Assembly (NCBI RefSeq): GCF_004010195.1
Contig: NC_057754.1
Location: forward strand, 708,169 to 739,019
Direction of reading: 5' to 3'
Length of the DNA: 30,851 nt
Source of the DNA: Chiloscyllium plagiosum
Lineage: Eukaryota
Both the position numbers and the translations under genes were made by a program. The notes under the pieces were generated by a model. That model worked only from the letters and a program-made list of their open reading frames with translations. It did no database searches and was not told where the DNA came from. Every line of letters starts with the position of its first letter. Position 1 is the first letter of the stretch. Of this stretch, positions 150-30,155 are shown piece by piece.

Positions 150-838
150 ATACTGTCCAGACTATGGTAACAGCAGAGGAACCTCAATCATTAGAAAGGT
201 TTAAAACTGATAAGGAGGAGGTATTGGATAAGCTGGTGCTGCTTAAAGTTATGAGGAACTAGGACCACATGAGATGCGGCAAAGGACATTGAAAGAAGTG
301 AGAATGGAAATTGCAGGAGCACTGGCAATGATCAGCATTTACTTACCATTCACTTAAACTTTGGTCATGGACAAACCTCTAGAAATTAATTTTCGATAGT
401 CACCTGTAAAAATGTGAGTTGATTCAGATGAGTCAGCATGGATTTGTATCTAAGATGGTGTCTAACTAATTTCCTGCGGATGTTTGAAGAGGTAACATAG
501 AGAATTATGACACACATACACACACACCAGACCTGTGTCATGGAATAAAAGGGTCAGTAGGAAGATGGATGCAACATTGGCTAAAGGATCACTAACAGAG
601 AGTAATGGTCAATGGCTATTTTTCAGGCTGAAGGAAGGTTTGTAGTGGTGTTACCTAGGGGTCAGTATTGTGACCTTTGGTTTTCCTGATAAATAGAAAT
701 CATCTAGATCTTGCTGTGCAGAGGACAATTTCAGCGTTTGTGGATGAAGCATTGACAGACATAAGAAGAGCAATGTAAACATACAAAGGGACATAGAAAA
801 GTTGTTGAGTAGGCAGAGAGATAGCAGATGAAGTTCAG
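150..838 (+). mobile_element. CR1-type LINE ORF2 (RT) remnant, 5' part; interrupted at 838 by a solo LTR
   Basis: Decayed translations LERFKTDKEEVLDKL, TLKEVRMEIAGALAMI, SQHGF and QRVMVNGYFSG*RKVCSGVT*GSVL match CR1 ORF2 motifs, with stops, frameshifts and deletions. It ends at cagatgaagttc (QMKF) and resumes at 2352 with aatgtggagaagtgtgaggtg (NVEKCEV). Confidence 0.9.
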
Positions 839-1006
839 TGTTATAGTGACCAGCCGAATCTTGTTGACTATGAGATCCTTGATTGGGGTTGTTAAACTGA
901 GCCAATCAGGAAAGCCTTCGCTGACTGTTATAACAGGGAATTTACAAAGAAAAAAAATATATAATCAGGAAAAGAAAGAAAAGAAAAAAATATATAACCC
1001 GAGGAA

Positions 1007-1358
1007 TGTCCCTGGAAAAGGAGCGTGCAGTGTCGACCAACACCCTCGAAGCTTTTAGGAAGAATGGGCATCGCAGGGTGTGGAGTGTTTTATCTCCCCC
1101 TCCAACTCTATTTTGATTTAATCCCTGTCCTTCCCTTCACTTTTTTTGATCACGTAGCATTGCCCTTTGTCGAGACGGGCACTGCTTGTCATTGGCCACT
1201 CGGGTGTTTCCTTTCCTTCTGGTGGTGGAATATAAATAAAGATTTGCGCACTTGTTCCTCACTGTGTCCTACATCGGTACACATACGGCGTGGGTACTGG
1301 GGGAAAATAACCACTACTGCTGTTAGGCAGAAGTAAAGAGAAAAAAAGAAAAAATAAA
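1007..1358 (+). mobile_element. 5'-truncated Tx1/L1-clade non-LTR retrotransposon 3' end (ORF2 C-terminus, 3'UTR, hairpin tail, A tail), copy 1
   Basis: Reads SLEKERAVSTNTLEAFR then, after a frameshift, QGVECFISPSNSILI*. It is homologous to 1665-1956, 13950-14445 and 22337-22544, has AATAAA in the UTR and an A-rich tail at 1336-1358. The clade assignment is from recall. Confidence 0.7.
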
Positions 1359-1474
1359 ATAAACAGGAGTGTCAGACATGCTGTTCATTCAGAGAGCTGG
1401 CTTTGAGGAACCTGGACCACTGTCAACTACTCTGAATGTGAAAATAAAGGGTGATTTGGCGACAGGAAAAAAAA
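1359..1474 (+). mobile_element. Polyadenylated TATA-to-polyA-site fragment of a different, related LTR subfamily
   Basis: ataaacaggagtgtcagac...aataaagggtgatttggcgacagg followed by A8. The 3' part matches the host LTR (aataaaaggtgacttggtgatgg, about 2302-2324) but the middle differs. It stops 18 nt after AATAAA and lacks the U5 end. Confidence 0.7.
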
Positions 1475-1664
1475 CCTATAACCATGGGATTTACAAAGAA
1501 AAAAATGTAACTAGGAAAATAAAAAAAAATGTAAAAATATAACCGGGGATTTACAAAGAAAATAACATATAAACAGGAGAAGAAAGAAAAGAGAAAAAAA
1601 ACATATATATATATATAGATATATACATACATACAGGGGATTTAGAATGTCCTCAGTTCTGGGA

Positions 1665-1975
1665 CACCCTCGATGTTTTCAGGGAGAAGTGGGCACCGCG
1701 GGGAGTGGAGTGTTTTATTTCTCCCTCCAGCTGTATTTTGATTTAGTCCCTGCCCTCCCCTTCACCTTTAATCATGCAACATTGCCCTTTGTTGAGAAGG
1801 GCTCTGCCTGTCACTGGCCACTCTGGTGTTTCCATTCTTCCTGGTGGTGGAATATGAATACAGATTTCCTTACTCGTTTTTTCACTGTGTCCTACACTTA
1901 CACGACATAGGTGCTGGGAAAAATAAACACTGCCACTGTTTGGTGGTAGTGTGGGGATATATACATATATAAATA
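1665..1975 (+). mobile_element. 5'-truncated Tx1/L1-clade 3' end, copy 2
   Basis: Reads TLDVFREKWAPRGVECFISPSSCILI*, with a UTR collinear with copy 1 and a terminal hairpin acactgccac-tgtttg-gtggtagtgt (1927-1952). It is preceded by a ~34 nt copy of the LTR target (1631-1664). Confidence 0.75.
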
Positions 1976-2045
1976 AAACCAGGAGATTTAGAATCTCAGT
2001 TTAAAAAAAAACAAAAAATAAATAACCGGGGGAAAAAAGAAAGTT

Positions 2046-2144
2046 TAATCAGGAGTTTAGGTTCTCCTCAGTTCAGGCAACTGACTCTGAGCTGACTGGC
2101 CACAAGAAAATAAAGGGTGACTTGGTGACAGAGGGGAAAAAAAA
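2046..2144 (+). mobile_element. Second polyadenylated LTR R-region fragment (host-like subfamily, internally deleted)
   Basis: taatcaggagtttaggttctcctcagttcaggcaactgactctgagctgactggccacaa...aataaagggtgacttggtgacagagggg plus an A run; it parallels 2220-2324 and ends about 20 nt after AATAAA. Confidence 0.7.
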
Positions 2145-2827
2145 CAAAATAACATATAACCGGGGGAGCTGTATGGCAATAGTGTAGGGGAAGCATAGGA
2201 ATTTGAAAAAGGAAAGAAATATAAACAGGGGATTTAGAATCTCCTCAGTTGAGGACTGACTCCAAGCTGGCCGGTCACAGTTCGTGTACTGTGCACAAGT
2301 AAATAAAAGGTGACTTGGTGATGGAATACTGGCCTCTATGCAGTTATTTCAAATGTGGAGAAGTGTGAGGTGATGCCGTTTGTTCGCAGGAACATTGGGC
2401 GACAGTATAAAATAAAGGGTATTATTCTGAAGGGTGTGCAAGAACAGCAAGACCTGGGTGTATTTGTACAAAGGTGAAAGATAGAGAGAGCTGTTAATGG
2501 ACTATACAGTATTCTAATCTTTATCAATAGGAGTATGGAGCAGGATGATGTCAGTGAACCTATATGAGACACTGGTTAGACCTCAGCTGGAGTATTATGT
2601 GTGGTTCTGTGTGCTGCATTATAAGAAAGAACACATTGGAGAGAGAGCAGGAAAGGTTTACAAGAGTGTTTTCAGCCTCAATCATAAGGAAACATTTGAG
2701 ACATTCGTACTGCTTTCTTTGCAGGGGGGATGGCTAAGGTGGCATTTGATGGGAGTTTTCAAAACCTCAGGGGTCGGTGCAGAAGTTGTTCCTGGATGTG
2801 CAATGATTGAGAATGAGTTTTGACATG

Positions 2828-18744: not shown

Positions 18745-19660
18745 TTTAGTGATATTGGTTTGGCGAAAAATAGTGGCCGCTAGACACCAGGGCCTGTATC
18801 CACAGTGGGATCTTTTATGCCACCTTCCTGCATCCTCCCCTCACACAAGGGATCTCAGTTTAATGTTGCATCTGAAAATGGCACCTCCGACAGCGCAGCA
18901 TTCCCTCAGCACTGACCCTCCGACAGCATGGCACTCCCTCAATACTGACCCTCTGACAGTGCAATGCTTCCTCAGCACTGACCCTCCGACAGTGCGGTGC
19001 TCCCTCAGCACTGACCCTCCGACAGTGCGATGCTTCCTCAGCACTGACCCTCCGATAGTGCCCACTCCCTTAGTACTGATATTTTGACAATGTGGGGCTC
19101 CCTCAGCACTGACCCTCTGACAACACAGTGCTCCCTCTGTACTGACTCTCTGACAATACCACACTCCCTCAGTAGTGACCCTCAAACAGTGCAGCAATCC
19201 CTCAGCACTGACCCTCTGACAGTTTGGCACTTTCTCAGCACTAACCCTCTGACAGCGCAGCTCTATCTCAGCACTGACCCTCCAACAGTTTGGCATTCCC
19301 TCAGCGCTGACCCTCCAACAGTTTGGCATTCCCTCAGCACTGACTCTCCAACAGTTCATTGCTCCCTCAGTAATGACCCTCTGGCAGTGAAGTGCTCCCT
19401 CAGCACTGACCCTCCAATAGTGTGGTGCTCCCTCAGCACTGACCCTCCGACAGTGTGACACTCCCTGAGCACTGATCCTCCGACAGTGCAGCTCTCCCTC
19501 AGCACTGACCCTCCAACAGAGCAGCACTCCCTCACACTACCAGTGTTGCACTCGCTCAGTACAGGCCCTGTGATAATGCGGAGCTCCCTCAATGCTGGCA
19601 CTCGATAGTGGCCTAGATTACGCACTCCTGTCTCTGAAAAAGGAGTTGTGCCCCTACTAT
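18745..19660 (-). mobile_element. Deu-domain SINE (SacSINE1/AmnSINE1-like) with an internally expanded minisatellite
   Basis: tgggatcttttatgccacc...tcagtttaatgttgcatctgaaaatggcacctccgacagcgcagca...ccctcagcactg on the left and cctagatta...ctctg on the right match the recalled reverse Deu-domain consensus. Confidence 0.65.
18884..19605. repeat. 33-bp minisatellite (~21-22 units, CTCCCTCAGCACTGACCCTCCGACAGTGCAGCA)
   Basis: ctgaccctc recurs every 33 nt (18912, 18945, ...); this explains the periodic 11-aa ORFs on both strands. Confidence 0.95.
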
Positions 19661-29219: not shown

Positions 29220-30155
29220 TACCTCCAGTCCGCAAGAGACTCACCTCCCCATGACATCCCCCAGTATGGGCCTAGCCTCCCCATGACATGCTCCAGTCTG
29301 GGCCTAGCCTGCCCATGACATCCCCCCCTCTGGGCCTAGCCTCCCCATGACATCCTCCAGTCTGGGCCTAACCTCCCCATGACGTCCCCCAGTTTGAGCC
29401 TAGCCTCCCCATGACATCCTCCAGTCCAGGCCTAGCCTCCCCATGACATCCTCCAGTCTGGGCCTAGCCTCCCCATGACATCCCCCAGTTTGGGCCTAGC
29501 CTCCCCATGACATCCCCCAGTCTGGGCGTAGCCTCCCCCATGACATCCTCCAGTCTGGGCCTAGCCTGCCCATGACATCCTCCAGTCCAGGCCTAGCCTG
29601 CCCATGACATCCCCCAGTCTGGGCCTAGCCTCCCCATGACATCCTCCAGTCTGGGCCTAGCCTCCCCATGACATCCTCCAGACCAGGCCTAGCCTCCCCA
29701 TGACATCCTCCAGTCTGGGCCTAGCCTCCCCATGACATCCTCCAGTCCGGGCCTAGCCTCCCCATGACATCCTCCAGTCTGGGCCTAGCCTGCCCATGAC
29801 ATCCTCCAGTCCAGGCCTAGCCTGCCCATGACATCCTCCAGTCCAGGCTTAGCCTCCCCATGACATCCTCCAGTCCAGGACTCCCCTCACCATGACATCC
29901 CCCAGTCTGGGCCTAGCCTGCCCATGACATCCTCCAGTCTGGGCCTAGCCTCCCCATGACGTCCTCCAGTCCAGGCCTTGCCTCCCCATGACATCCTCTA
30001 GTCTGGGCCTAGCCTGCCCAAGACATCCTCCAGTCTGGGCCTAGCCTCCTCATGACATCCTCCAGTCCAGGACTCCCCTCACCATGACATCCCCCAGTCT
30101 GGGCCTTGACTCCCCATGGCATCCTCCAGTCCAGGACTTGCTTCTCCATGACATC
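29220..30155. repeat. Homogeneous 32-bp minisatellite (~29 units, CTCCCCATGACATCCTCCAGTCTGGGCCTAGC)
   Basis: atgac at 29251, 29283, 29315... (period 32), with very few variant positions. Confidence 0.97.

What the first reader, a model, noticed from the sequence alone, without database searches (positions are those of the whole stretch)
929..2260. Array of repeated retro-insertions at the TATA box of a solo LTR: candidate LTR-promoter-targeting Tx1-like element
Seen: the LTR (839-928 plus 2220-2351, about 220 bp when joined) is split exactly at its TATA box. The gap holds about 14 variants of TATAAC(A/C)GG[GGATTTA..] at roughly 929, 960, 993, 1359, 1477, 1506, 1538, 1568, 1631, 1973, 2021, 2046, 2155 and 2220. 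All copies after the first follow an A-rich (or TA-rich) tail and start at about the same point, while their right ends vary from about 10 to 35 nt. Cargo between copies ranges from a bare A tail, to a ~25-nt tail fragment (2168-2190), to 300-350 nt Tx1-like 3' ends. Known: a fixed 3' junction with poly-A, variable-length TSDs and variable 5' truncation is the signature of target-primed reverse transcription, and the Tx1 clade includes sequence-specific families, including Xenopus Tx1 which targets another transposon. Inference: a Tx1-like subfamily targets this LTR's TATA region, and each insertion duplicates the target, so the site becomes a self-renewing landing pad. I do not recall this target being described, but cannot verify novelty.
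Basis: partly seen in the sequence, partly recalled or inferred. Interest (0 to 1): 0.85.

Follow-up and report, generated by a model that had tools for sequence, protein, structure and literature searches.

The report
Tx1 LINE homing to LTR TATA
A jumping gene closely related to the frog element Tx1 lands again and again at one spot, the TATA box of another retrotransposon's terminal repeat, and has piled up there; this is a clear new example of a known habit of Tx1 elements.

Summary
Window 839-928 plus 2220-2351 is one ~220-bp LTR, collinear with uninterrupted copies elsewhere. Everything between is inserted at its TATA box as 13 stacked units. Each unit starts with a copy of TATAAC(A/C)GG.. 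and ends in an A-rich tail.

The cargo is a LINE whose ORF2 (APE nuclease plus RT) is 51-58% identical to Xenopus Tx1L and groups with it (SH-aLRT 100).

The targeting holds genome-wide. Of 29 other LTR copies, 16 carry this LINE at the same site, with about 13 different 5' truncation points, and 7 are empty. Of 28 other LINE 3' ends, 16 run into the LTR's R region, against 1% of control windows.

Independent runs of the same organism confirm the array piecewise. Two related organisms hold it at about 96% identity, so it is old and not a misassembly. No second copy of the arrangement was found.

Tx1 families that prefer LTR retrotransposons are already mentioned for crocodilians (Kojima 2015). 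This scan also met the same stacking on another piece of this genome (e1-7789243) and left the enzyme and the target unnamed; both are named here.

Nuclease specificity and use of the LTR promoter remain inferred.

The parts
839..928 (+). U3 part of the host LTR, starting TGT, with CCAAT at 902-906
   Evidence: 2045 first-look candidates in the genome, 40 scored at 84-93% identity; other copies start TGTAGTGATTGG.. with unrelated upstream flanks. Three copies have a purine-rich tract just upstream, and one has an integrase-like ORF upstream.
929..949 (+). Target piece T1 (TATAACAGGGAATTTACAAAG), followed by tail 950-959
   Evidence: (family D7).
960..969 (+). Target piece T2 (10 nt), followed by A/G-rich tail 970-992
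   Evidence: The block 929-992 resembles 1538-1602 (D3 at 88% and D7 at 89%).
993..1007 (+). Target piece T3 (about 15 nt). Its junction with the LINE has a possible GTCC microhomology.
1008..1334 (+). Tx1-like LINE copy 1: 5'-truncated 3' end of about 330 nt, followed by tail 1335-1357
   Evidence: 79% identical to copy 2; other copies continue further upstream.
1358..1466 (+). Long unit T4: TATA to poly(A) site of a second LTR subfamily ('b'), then A-run 1467-1474. It is probably carried in with LINE copy 1 (3' transduction).
   Evidence: 39 of the 41 other matches cover only query positions within 1-128 and stop at 112-128, and the remaining two are shorter or reach only 152. The unit differs from the host LTR's R (2226-2325).
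1477..1498 (+). Target piece T5 (22 nt, same ..ATTTACAAAG end as T1 and T7), followed by a tail
   Evidence: (D7).
1508..1515 (+). Short target piece T6 (TAACTAGG), followed by tail 1516-1537
   Evidence: by eye. This is the weakest of the units.
1538..1558 (+). Target piece T7, followed by a tail
1568..1579 (+). Target piece T8 (TATAAACAGGAG), followed by A-rich then (AT)n tail 1580-1627
1628..1663 (+). Target piece T9 (about 33 nt of the LTR R start)
   Evidence: (D5). In one search every one of the genome matches that reaches the query's 5' part starts at query positions 24-39, the commonest being 25 (window 1664). So 1640-1663 is not LINE.
1664..1956 (+). Tx1-like LINE copy 2: 5'-truncated 3' end of 293 nt, ending in a 9-bp hairpin and GTGTGGGG, followed by tail 1957-1973
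   Evidence: 3784 candidates, 40 scored, 80-84% identity. for the hairpin.
1974..2002 (+). Target piece T10 (about 29 nt), followed by tail 2003-2020
   Evidence: (D5).
2021..2032 (+). Target piece T11, followed by a short tail fragment 2033-2043
   Evidence: (D1).
2044..2136 (+). Long unit T12: TATA to poly(A) site of an 'a'-type LTR that lacks 16 nt present in the host LTR, then tail 2137-2154. It is probably transduced.
   Evidence: D6, D9, D13.
2155..2166 (+). Target piece T13
2167..2190 (+). Last 24 nt of the LINE (an extreme 5' truncation), followed by degraded tail 2191-2219
   Evidence: One search compared with the LINE ends listed, by eye.
2220..2351 (+). Rest of the host LTR: TATA 2220-2225, R, AATAAA 2302-2307, inferred poly(A) site near 2324, U5, end ..TTATTTCA
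   Evidence: 3490 candidates, 40 scored at 86-89%; other copies end at the same ..TTATTTCA.

Best explanation
A Tx1-clade non-LTR retrotransposon close to Xenopus Tx1L integrates site-specifically, by target-primed reverse transcription, at the TATA box of a short (~220 bp) LTR family. That family has two subfamilies which share ..GCTGAC(C/A)(A/G)ATATAA(A/C)CAGGAG.

The bottom strand is nicked inside or just 5' of the TATA box. The top strand is usually nicked about 12-19 nt downstream, after CAGGAG plus 0-3 nt. Each insertion is therefore flanked by a duplicated TATAAC..GGAG piece, and an intact target stands again behind its poly(A) tail. Further insertions hit one of these copies. Most are 5'-truncated, some down to the tail alone, and a stack builds up.

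In this window at most 13 events, fewer if some are duplications, have split one solo LTR by 1.29 kb. Some inserts carry a whole TATA-to-poly(A)-site piece of another LTR. This fits transcripts that read through from a donor LINE into its own landing pad and ended at the LTR's poly(A) site.

Shown here: the clade, the common site, independent insertions at it, the genome-wide preference, and the age and reality of the array. Inferred: that the APE nuclease sets the specificity, the exact nick positions, and the read-through origin of the long units.
For: Clade; 58% identity over 100% of the 501-aa RT query to YTX2_XENLA, E 2e-180; 52% over 622 aa from residue 1 of Tx1L ORF2. Exo_endo_phos 42 bits (cutoff 24.5) and RVT_1; clade with Tx1L, a sea-turtle element and one unnamed element at SH-aLRT 100, with 51% identity over 941 columns.

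LTR side; of 29 U3 copies other than the window's, chosen by U3 similarity only, 16 have this LINE's 3' end downstream with no R/U5 in between. In 12 of these the hit starts within 120 nt of U3. Seven have R/U5 directly adjoining (empty) and 6 are other cases. By eye, three of those 6 are also interrupted at the site by LINE-like sequence or a bare tail. The first LINE copies start at LINE positions 1, 17, 18, 83, 90, 105, 131, 132, 154, 167, 184, 215 and 217 of the 293-nt query, so they are separate events. Nine of the 16 hold 2-5 stacked copies.

LINE side; 16 of 28 central LINE copies, chosen by LINE similarity only, have the LTR's R start (TATA excluded from scoring) within 130 nt of their 3' end, above the 99th percentile of 2000 control windows. 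The same holds for 6 of 13 further copies in the same loci; in 9 of those 16 the LTR continues through its AATAAA, and in 8 it reaches the U5 end motif, so these are true targets and not carried pieces; the left flanks of many copies are U3 plus TATA..CAGGAG of either subfamily.

Window; 12 target-like 12-mers on one strand within 1.27 kb; the arrangement 1340-1670 has no second full-length match; contigs of two independent studies of the same organism cover 1302-1763 (2 differences), 1369-1568 (0), 1826-2046 (0) and 2034-2244 (3). Contigs of two other organisms cover the flank-to-LTR junctions and inner junctions at about 96%.
Against: By the objective test, 12 of 28 LINE copies are not followed by the LTR. 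By eye about 7 of 28 lie at other sites, some of which resemble the target (for example GATAAAAGGCCAGGGAA in L014). The specificity is a strong preference and not absolute.

The samples are small: 28 and 29 copies out of thousands of first-look candidates. They are the copies most like the window's own, so they may represent one subfamily.

Part of the array is an internal duplication (929-992 against 1538-1602). The number of independent insertions in this window is therefore below 13 and was not resolved.

The tail and the TATA box are both A/T-rich, so the bottom-strand nick cannot be placed to the base.

No nuclease assay was done. No full-length element was seen with both junctions. No RNA evidence was obtained.
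Confidence: 0.85

Rival explanations
1. After one or two real insertions, the array grew mainly by local duplication (unequal crossing-over, replication slippage or conversion between the repeated pieces). Repeated retrotransposition played little part.
For: 929-992 and 1538-1602 are the same two-unit block (D3 88%, D7 89%). T1, T5 and T7 share the odd ending ATTTACAAAG (D7).
Against: The two LINE copies differ in truncation point (about 1008 against 1664) and are only 79% identical, no closer than to copies elsewhere (80-84%). The units carry different cargo: family 'b' R, a deleted 'a' R, and a 24-nt LINE terminus. Stacks with different truncation points occur at 9 of 16 occupied LTRs elsewhere. 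Long target duplications that include an earlier insert would give the same duplicated blocks.
Confidence: 0.12
2. The LINE has only the generic L1-type taste for T-rich/A sites. The TATA box of an abundant repeat is simply a frequent A/T-rich site.
For: The site is A/T-rich. Some copies lie outside LTRs.
Against: 16 of 28 junctions fall in one repeat family, with the R sequence scored without the TATA, against a 1% control rate. The left junction is also fixed, mostly 16-19 nt after GCTGAC (by eye). The off-target sites seen resemble the motif. The nearest relative, Tx1L, has a sequence-specific nuclease (PMC1950540, passages read).
Confidence: 0.04
3. LTR-plus-LINE composites were made once and then multiplied. 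This happened either as part of the LTR element's own replication, by segmental duplication, or through an assembly error.
For: A few truncation points are nearly the same in two loci (17/18, 131/132, 215/217).
Against: About 13 different start points occur among the 16 occupied copies, with different tails and stack sizes. There is no second copy of the window's arrangement. Independent runs and two related organisms confirm the array. The near-identical start points coincide with stretches of the LINE that resemble the target end (by eye), as microhomology-guided joining would give.
Confidence: 0.03

Closest known systems
Tx1L of Xenopus laevis, inserted in the piggyBac-type DNA transposon Tx1D
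   Same: Nearest named relative by sequence: 51-58% identity in ORF2, the same clade in the tree, and APE plus RT. It is likewise a stringent element that lives inside another transposon, and its nuclease nicks almost only at the expected target (PMC1950540, passages read).
   Different: The target is an LTR at its TATA box and not a DNA transposon. In the nuclease stretch that aligns with Tx1L's RDGH hairpin tip, the element here is 3 residues shorter and reads FVGPGVGVS where Tx1L reads YVRVRDGHVSQS. That would fit a different target but proves nothing. The original Tx1 papers could not be read here.
Tx1-8_Crp and Tx1-4_AMi of crocodilians (Kojima 2015, PMC4494074)
   Same: [quoted passage not shown]
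   Different: Those families cluster with Keno/Tx1-Mar according to the paper. The element here clusters with Tx1L itself. The tree holds no labelled Keno or Tx1-Mar row, so the contrast rests on the paper. The paper's main text gives no site within the LTR and no stacking. Its supplementary figures could not be read and may show more.
Tx1-Mar with SINEU-3 in Mariner-N4_AMi (same paper)
   Same: Repeated independent insertions of a Tx1 group and its passengers into one spot of another transposon family.
   Different: The target is a DNA transposon. A short non-autonomous passenger was not identified here, although a second 3' end using the same site was seen (L036, L042).
R2 and R1 in 28S rDNA; Keno in U2 snRNA genes
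   Same: Site-specific LINEs that sit in a multicopy transcribed unit. R2 depends on transcription from its target (as cited in PMC4494074, section 20).
   Different: They belong to different clades or have different targets. Transcription from the LTR promoter is only a hypothesis here.

Membership tests
Tx1 clade of non-LTR retrotransposons | ORF2 with an N-terminal APE-type endonuclease | tested here: met
   Exo_endo_phos at 42 and 45 bits (cutoff 24.5) at residues 17-222 of two copies (L076, L077); the region aligns from residue 1 of Tx1L ORF2.
Tx1 clade of non-LTR retrotransposons | Reverse transcriptase that groups with Tx1 and not with L1 in an RT/ORF2 tree | tested here: met
   13 rows, quick IQ-TREE, rooted on an L1-like ORF2 of the same genome. 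The query falls in a 4-row clade with Xenopus Tx1L at SH-aLRT 100. Limits: few rows, one very long outgroup branch, and no curated reference set (Repbase was not available).
Tx1 clade of non-LTR retrotransposons | C-terminal Cys/His motif after the RT | tested here: inconclusive
   C-X2-C-X7-H-X4-C (CLFCGAVKSVDHVYKGC) is seen by eye in a frameshifted copy. The best ORF (L079) is cut there by a withheld stretch, and Pfam gave no zinc-finger hit.
Tx1 clade of non-LTR retrotransposons | ORF1 upstream of ORF2, and a full-length element with its 5' end | not tested
   A 313-aa open frame upstream in L079 has no Pfam hit.
Target-specific LINE | Independent insertions at one sequence position, with target-site duplication and a 3' tail | tested here: met
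   with the counts given under Best explanation.
Target-specific LINE | The element's nuclease cleaves the target at the insertion site | not testable with these tools
   This needs a nicking assay.
LTR of an LTR retrotransposon (the target) | Discrete unit with TG..CA ends and short target duplications | tested here: met
   Copies start TGTAGTGATTGG.. and end ..GTGCAGTTATTTCA, with unrelated flanks. By eye, 5-bp duplications flank L043 (GAAAC), L059 (CTCTC) and L048 (GTTAT/GTTAC) but not L033 or L056. The window's own copy is ambiguous (TTCAG on the left; TTCAA on the right only if the LTR's last bases are counted).
LTR of an LTR retrotransposon (the target) | Internal region with a polypurine tract and pol genes next to some copies | tested here: inconclusive
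   Three of 29 copies share a purine-rich tract (..GGGAGAGGGA..) directly upstream. One has an upstream ORF with an integrase core match, rve E 4.6e-6 at 27.3 bits, below the 32.6 cutoff. The superfamily (Gypsy-like or retrovirus-like) was not determined.
LTR of an LTR retrotransposon (the target) | Promoter (TATA) in U3 and a poly(A) signal and site defining R | tested here: inconclusive
   CCAAT, TATAA and AATAAA stand in the expected order and spacing. Two retro-copied units end 17-23 nt after AATAAA in an A-run (1466, 2136), which fits use of that poly(A) site. The transcription start was not mapped.

The most novel reading that the evidence does not exclude
The LINE may be doing more than sheltering in a harmless site. 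It lands between the LTR's TATA box and its poly(A) signal, and the duplication leaves the TATA box in front of it. It could therefore borrow the LTR's promoter and terminator, so that even 5'-truncated, promoter-less copies are transcribed. Transcripts that read through to the LTR's poly(A) site would carry a TATA-to-R piece along. Each such insertion would then plant a fresh landing pad, even outside LTRs, and the stacks would seed themselves.
Probability: 0.35. Interest if true: 0.7.

Novelty: new member of a known kind. Interest (0 to 1): 0.5.

Why it matters
Target-specific LINEs show how a nuclease of the APE fold reads a long DNA address. They are also being developed as tools for safe-harbour gene insertion (for example PMC11371274, seen in a search listing only).

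This family is a close relative of Tx1L, the one Tx1 element whose nuclease has been studied, yet it has a quite different address. Many natural on-target and near-target sites are available for it. The pair would suit work on which residues set the address.

The site lies between a promoter's TATA box and its poly(A) signal. That also makes it possible to test directly whether a LINE can live off another retrotransposon's promoter.

For genome annotation, the result explains a common and confusing pattern in this genome: short LTR pieces alternating with A-rich tails and LINE ends.

Tried and rejected
A plain motif count in the window (TATAACMGG, 1 mismatch) was not above shuffles: 12 found, 8.4 expected, and 13 of 100 shuffles as high. 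A longer 12-mer showed the local clustering, although its total was also not above shuffles (33 found, 30 expected).

blastn-short of R against the LINE flanks was too insensitive (8 of 28), so a local-alignment score with controls replaced it. The 11-mer ATAAACAGGAG with up to 2 changes gave 13 of 28, against 241 of 5000 and 85 of 5000 control windows. The 7-mer ACAGGAG with up to 1 change was too common in controls to be useful (14 of 28 against 394 of 3000).

RNAalifold did not predict the terminal hairpin. Counting the named 9-bp stem gave 86% paired cells, against 23-64% when slid, but no covariation above shuffles. The hairpin is therefore a family feature without evidence of selection.

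No RNA holder was listed for the stretch.

Six long loci fetched to find a full-length element held only copies of 3.4 kb or less. One 7-kb locus gave the long ORF but is cut by a withheld stretch and lacks the 5' end.

The two original Tx1 papers are not held, and the supplements of Kojima 2015 are not readable. Five searches listed no title or abstract describing this family or a TATA-box target. Only PMC4494074 and PMC1950540 were opened.

Earlier-findings look-ups by place and by sequence returned nothing.
Full report
WHAT IS IN THE WINDOW.

Reading 600-2700 shows a short LTR-like unit. It starts TGT at 839, has CCAAT at 902-906 and TATAAC at 929-934, and then breaks off. Its continuation is at 2220-2351: TATAAACAGGGGATTTAGAATCTCC.., AATAAA at 2302-2307, and the end ..TTATTTCA.

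In uninterrupted copies elsewhere in the genome, the matches to 839-925 and to 2229-2351 lie 12-14 nt apart (L059, L056, L043). So 929-2219 is inserted material.

That material consists of 13 units. Each begins with a copy of the LTR from its TATA box onward and ends in an A-rich tail (one tail is AT-rich). The starts are at 929, 960, 993, 1358, 1477, 1508, 1538, 1568, 1628, 1974, 2021, 2044 and 2155.

The 12-mer at 2220 matches 12 times, with up to 3 mismatches, on the + strand of 960-2231. It matches 21 times in the remaining roughly 59 kb of both strands.

Cargo between the pieces is as follows:
- two 5'-truncated LINE 3' ends, about 1008-1334 and 1664-1956, 79% identical to each other;
- the last 24 nt of the same LINE (2167-2190);
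- bare tails;
- two long pieces (1358-1466 and 2044-2136) that run from the TATA box to 17-23 nt past an AATAAA and are then followed by A-runs.

The first long piece belongs to a second LTR subfamily ('b'), not to the host LTR. The second is an 'a'-type R that lacks 16 nt present in the host copy.

THE CARGO IS A TX1-CLADE LINE.

The 317-nt query 1640-1956 has 3784 first-look candidates in the 3.56-Gb assembly. Of the 44 matches listed from the 40 scored candidates, one is the query's own place. Every other match that reaches the query's 5' part starts at query positions 24-39, most often at 25, so window 1640-1663 is LTR and not LINE.

Other copies continue upstream into coding sequence. One locus (L079) has a 952-residue open frame with RVT_1 (E 4.5e-33). 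Two others (L076, L077) have an open ORF2 N-terminus with Exo_endo_phos above the Pfam cutoff, plus RVT_1.

The RT region is 58% identical over the whole 501-aa query to the Xenopus laevis 'Transposon TX1 uncharacterized 149 kDa protein'. The N-terminal 622 aa are 52% identical, starting at its residue 1.

In a 13-row tree rooted on an L1-like ORF2 of the same genome, the element falls in a 4-row clade with Tx1L at SH-aLRT 100. The tree has few rows, was a quick search and has a long outgroup branch.

The LINE ends with AATAAG, a 9-bp hairpin (CACTACCGC..GCGGTAGTG) and GTGTGGGG before the tail. The hairpin is present in most copies, but there is no covariation evidence for it.

THE TARGET IS A REAL LTR.

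Other copies begin TGTAGTGATTGG.. and end ..GTGCAGTTATTTCA, with unrelated flanks. Three of five solo copies inspected by eye have 5-bp duplications.

Three of 29 copies have a purine-rich tract directly upstream. One of them is preceded by an ORF with an integrase-core match that falls below Pfam's cutoff.

I did not determine the superfamily, and I built no consensus.

A second subfamily ('b') shares the end of U3 and the ..ATAA(A/G)AACAGGAG stretch but differs afterwards.

GENOME-WIDE TEST FROM THE LTR SIDE.

A search with U3 alone (2045 candidates, 40 scored, 30 loci kept) gives 29 copies besides the window's. They divide as follows:
- In 16, the LINE's 3' end follows with no R/U5 in between. 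In 12 of these it starts within 120 nt of U3.
- In 7, R/U5 adjoins directly, so the site is empty.
- The remaining 6 are other cases. By eye, L038 and L058 carry LINE-like sequence at the site and L050 a bare tail. L045 and L047 carry unknown inserts, with R/U5 displaced. L041 is a long R variant.

The first LINE copy starts at 13 different or nearly different positions of the 293-nt query. By eye, the LTR mostly stops 16-19 nt after GCTGAC. Nine of the 16 occupied copies hold 2-5 stacked LINE ends. These are independent hits at one site, and stacks like the window's are common.

GENOME-WIDE TEST FROM THE LINE SIDE.

Of the 28 central LINE copies in loci chosen by LINE similarity only, 16 have the start of R ('a' or 'b', with the TATA left out of the score) within 130 nt of their 3' end. 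That score lies above the 99th percentile of 2000 control windows. So do 6 of 13 further copies in the same loci.

By eye, about 21 of 28 lie in LTR context, counting short pieces.

In 9 of the 16 the LTR goes on through its poly(A) signal, and in 8 it reaches the U5 end. These are real targets and not carried pieces.

The copies outside LTRs include sites that resemble the motif.

REALITY AND AGE OF THE ARRAY.

The stretch 1340-1670 has no second full-length match among the 40 scored of 1033 candidates. Of the other matches, 39 of 41 cover only the 'b' R unit and stop at its poly(A) site.

Contigs from two other studies of the same organism cover 1302-1763 (2 differences), 1369-1568 (0), 1826-2046 (0) and 2034-2244 (3).

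Contigs of a second organism cover 705-877, 881-1113, 1219-1430, 1404-1718 and 2310-2600. Those of a third cover 600-884, 1219-1528 and 2065-2255. All of these have a few percent differences.

These are short-read contigs. None spans the whole array, and paralogy cannot be strictly excluded. Still, the junctions with the unique flanks are among the pieces covered. The array is therefore not an assembly artefact, and it most likely predates the split of these organisms.

MECHANISM.

A fixed left edge of the duplicated piece behind every tail, a mostly fixed right edge, variable 5' truncation and poly(A) tails together make up the pattern of target-primed reverse transcription by a site-specific element. 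The bottom-strand nick would lie at the TATA box and the top-strand nick about 12-19 nt downstream.

Because the duplication restores the site behind each insert, the site can be hit again. This accounts for the stacks.

The shared odd ending of T1, T5 and T7, and the similarity of 929-992 to 1538-1602, have two possible sources: local duplication, or long duplications that took in an earlier insert. I could not decide between them.

The two long units are most simply pieces of a donor's landing pad carried in read-through transcripts that ended at the LTR's poly(A) site. This is inference.

In the stretch that aligns with the RDGH tip of Tx1L's hairpin loop (PMC1950540, passages read), the nuclease differs from Tx1L and is 3 residues shorter. 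That paper also shows that grafting the loop does not transfer specificity, so this is only a lead.

COMPARISON AND NOVELTY.

Many Tx1 families are target-specific:
- Tx1 targets Tx1D.
- Keno targets U2 snRNA genes.
- Kibi and Koshi target microsatellites.
- Tx1-Mar targets a Mariner family.
- Tx1-9_AMi targets Harbinger families.

The kind is therefore known, and even the target class has been mentioned. What I did not find in print is this family, the site at the TATA box between promoter and poly(A) signal, or the stacking.

This scan had already met the stacking on another piece of the same genome (e1-7789243), with the enzyme family and the target left untested. Both are settled here. A plant case of a LINE next to an LTR's TATA box is also on file (e1-7226017, not checked by me).

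I file this as a new member of a known kind, of moderate interest.

WHAT STAYS OPEN.

- The exact nick positions and the specificity of the nuclease.
- The 5' end of a full-length element and its junction.
- Whether the LTR promoter drives the inserts.
- How many of the window's 13 units are separate insertions.

Noticed in passing
L036 about 1700-1800 and L042 about 1585-1800 (loci): A second poly(A)-tailed 3' end (..TTGTCTAATGTA(C/T)AAATGTCATTGTCACTGTCTTGT..) sits at the same LTR site. In L036 it continues from the LINE's 3' UTR, so it may belong to a sister subfamily or a passenger using the same target.
   Followed up: no
L079 4933-6249 and L065 6627-8210: In two LINE copies a withheld (N) stretch of 1.3-1.6 kb begins at the same LINE position, just inside the Cys/His motif, while L061 runs straight through there. 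This may be a recurrent insertion at one spot of the LINE. Its content cannot be seen.
   Followed up: no
window 600-838 and 2352-2700: The LTR sits inside another, unrelated LINE-like repeat whose reading frame seems to continue across the LTR (..gatgaagttcag | aatgtggagaagtgtgaggtgatg..). This was seen by eye only, and the family name is recalled and not tested.
   Followed up: no
L061 2865-5798: An open 977-aa L1-like ORF2 of a different LINE family lies 0.8 kb upstream of the Tx1-like copy. Its 5' part is withheld. It served as the outgroup.
   Followed up: partly
window 18884-19538 and 29244-30155: Two long tandem arrays: a 33-nt unit in 19.9 copies and a 32-nt unit in 28.5 copies. They are unrelated to the finding.
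   Followed up: no
L004, L005, L007, L026: Stacks of 3-4 LINE 3' ends at 400-600 bp spacing occur also where no U3 is in view. In L005 both copies are flanked by AAACCTCC(C/T)TGGAA, a site outside the LTR.
   Followed up: partly
L037/L051 and L036/L052: Pairs of unrelated loci share nearly the same LINE truncation point, where the LINE sequence resembles the target's CAGGAGA end (..CAGGGAGAGG....GAGAAGGG..). This suggests microhomology-guided joining of the 5' end.
   Followed up: no
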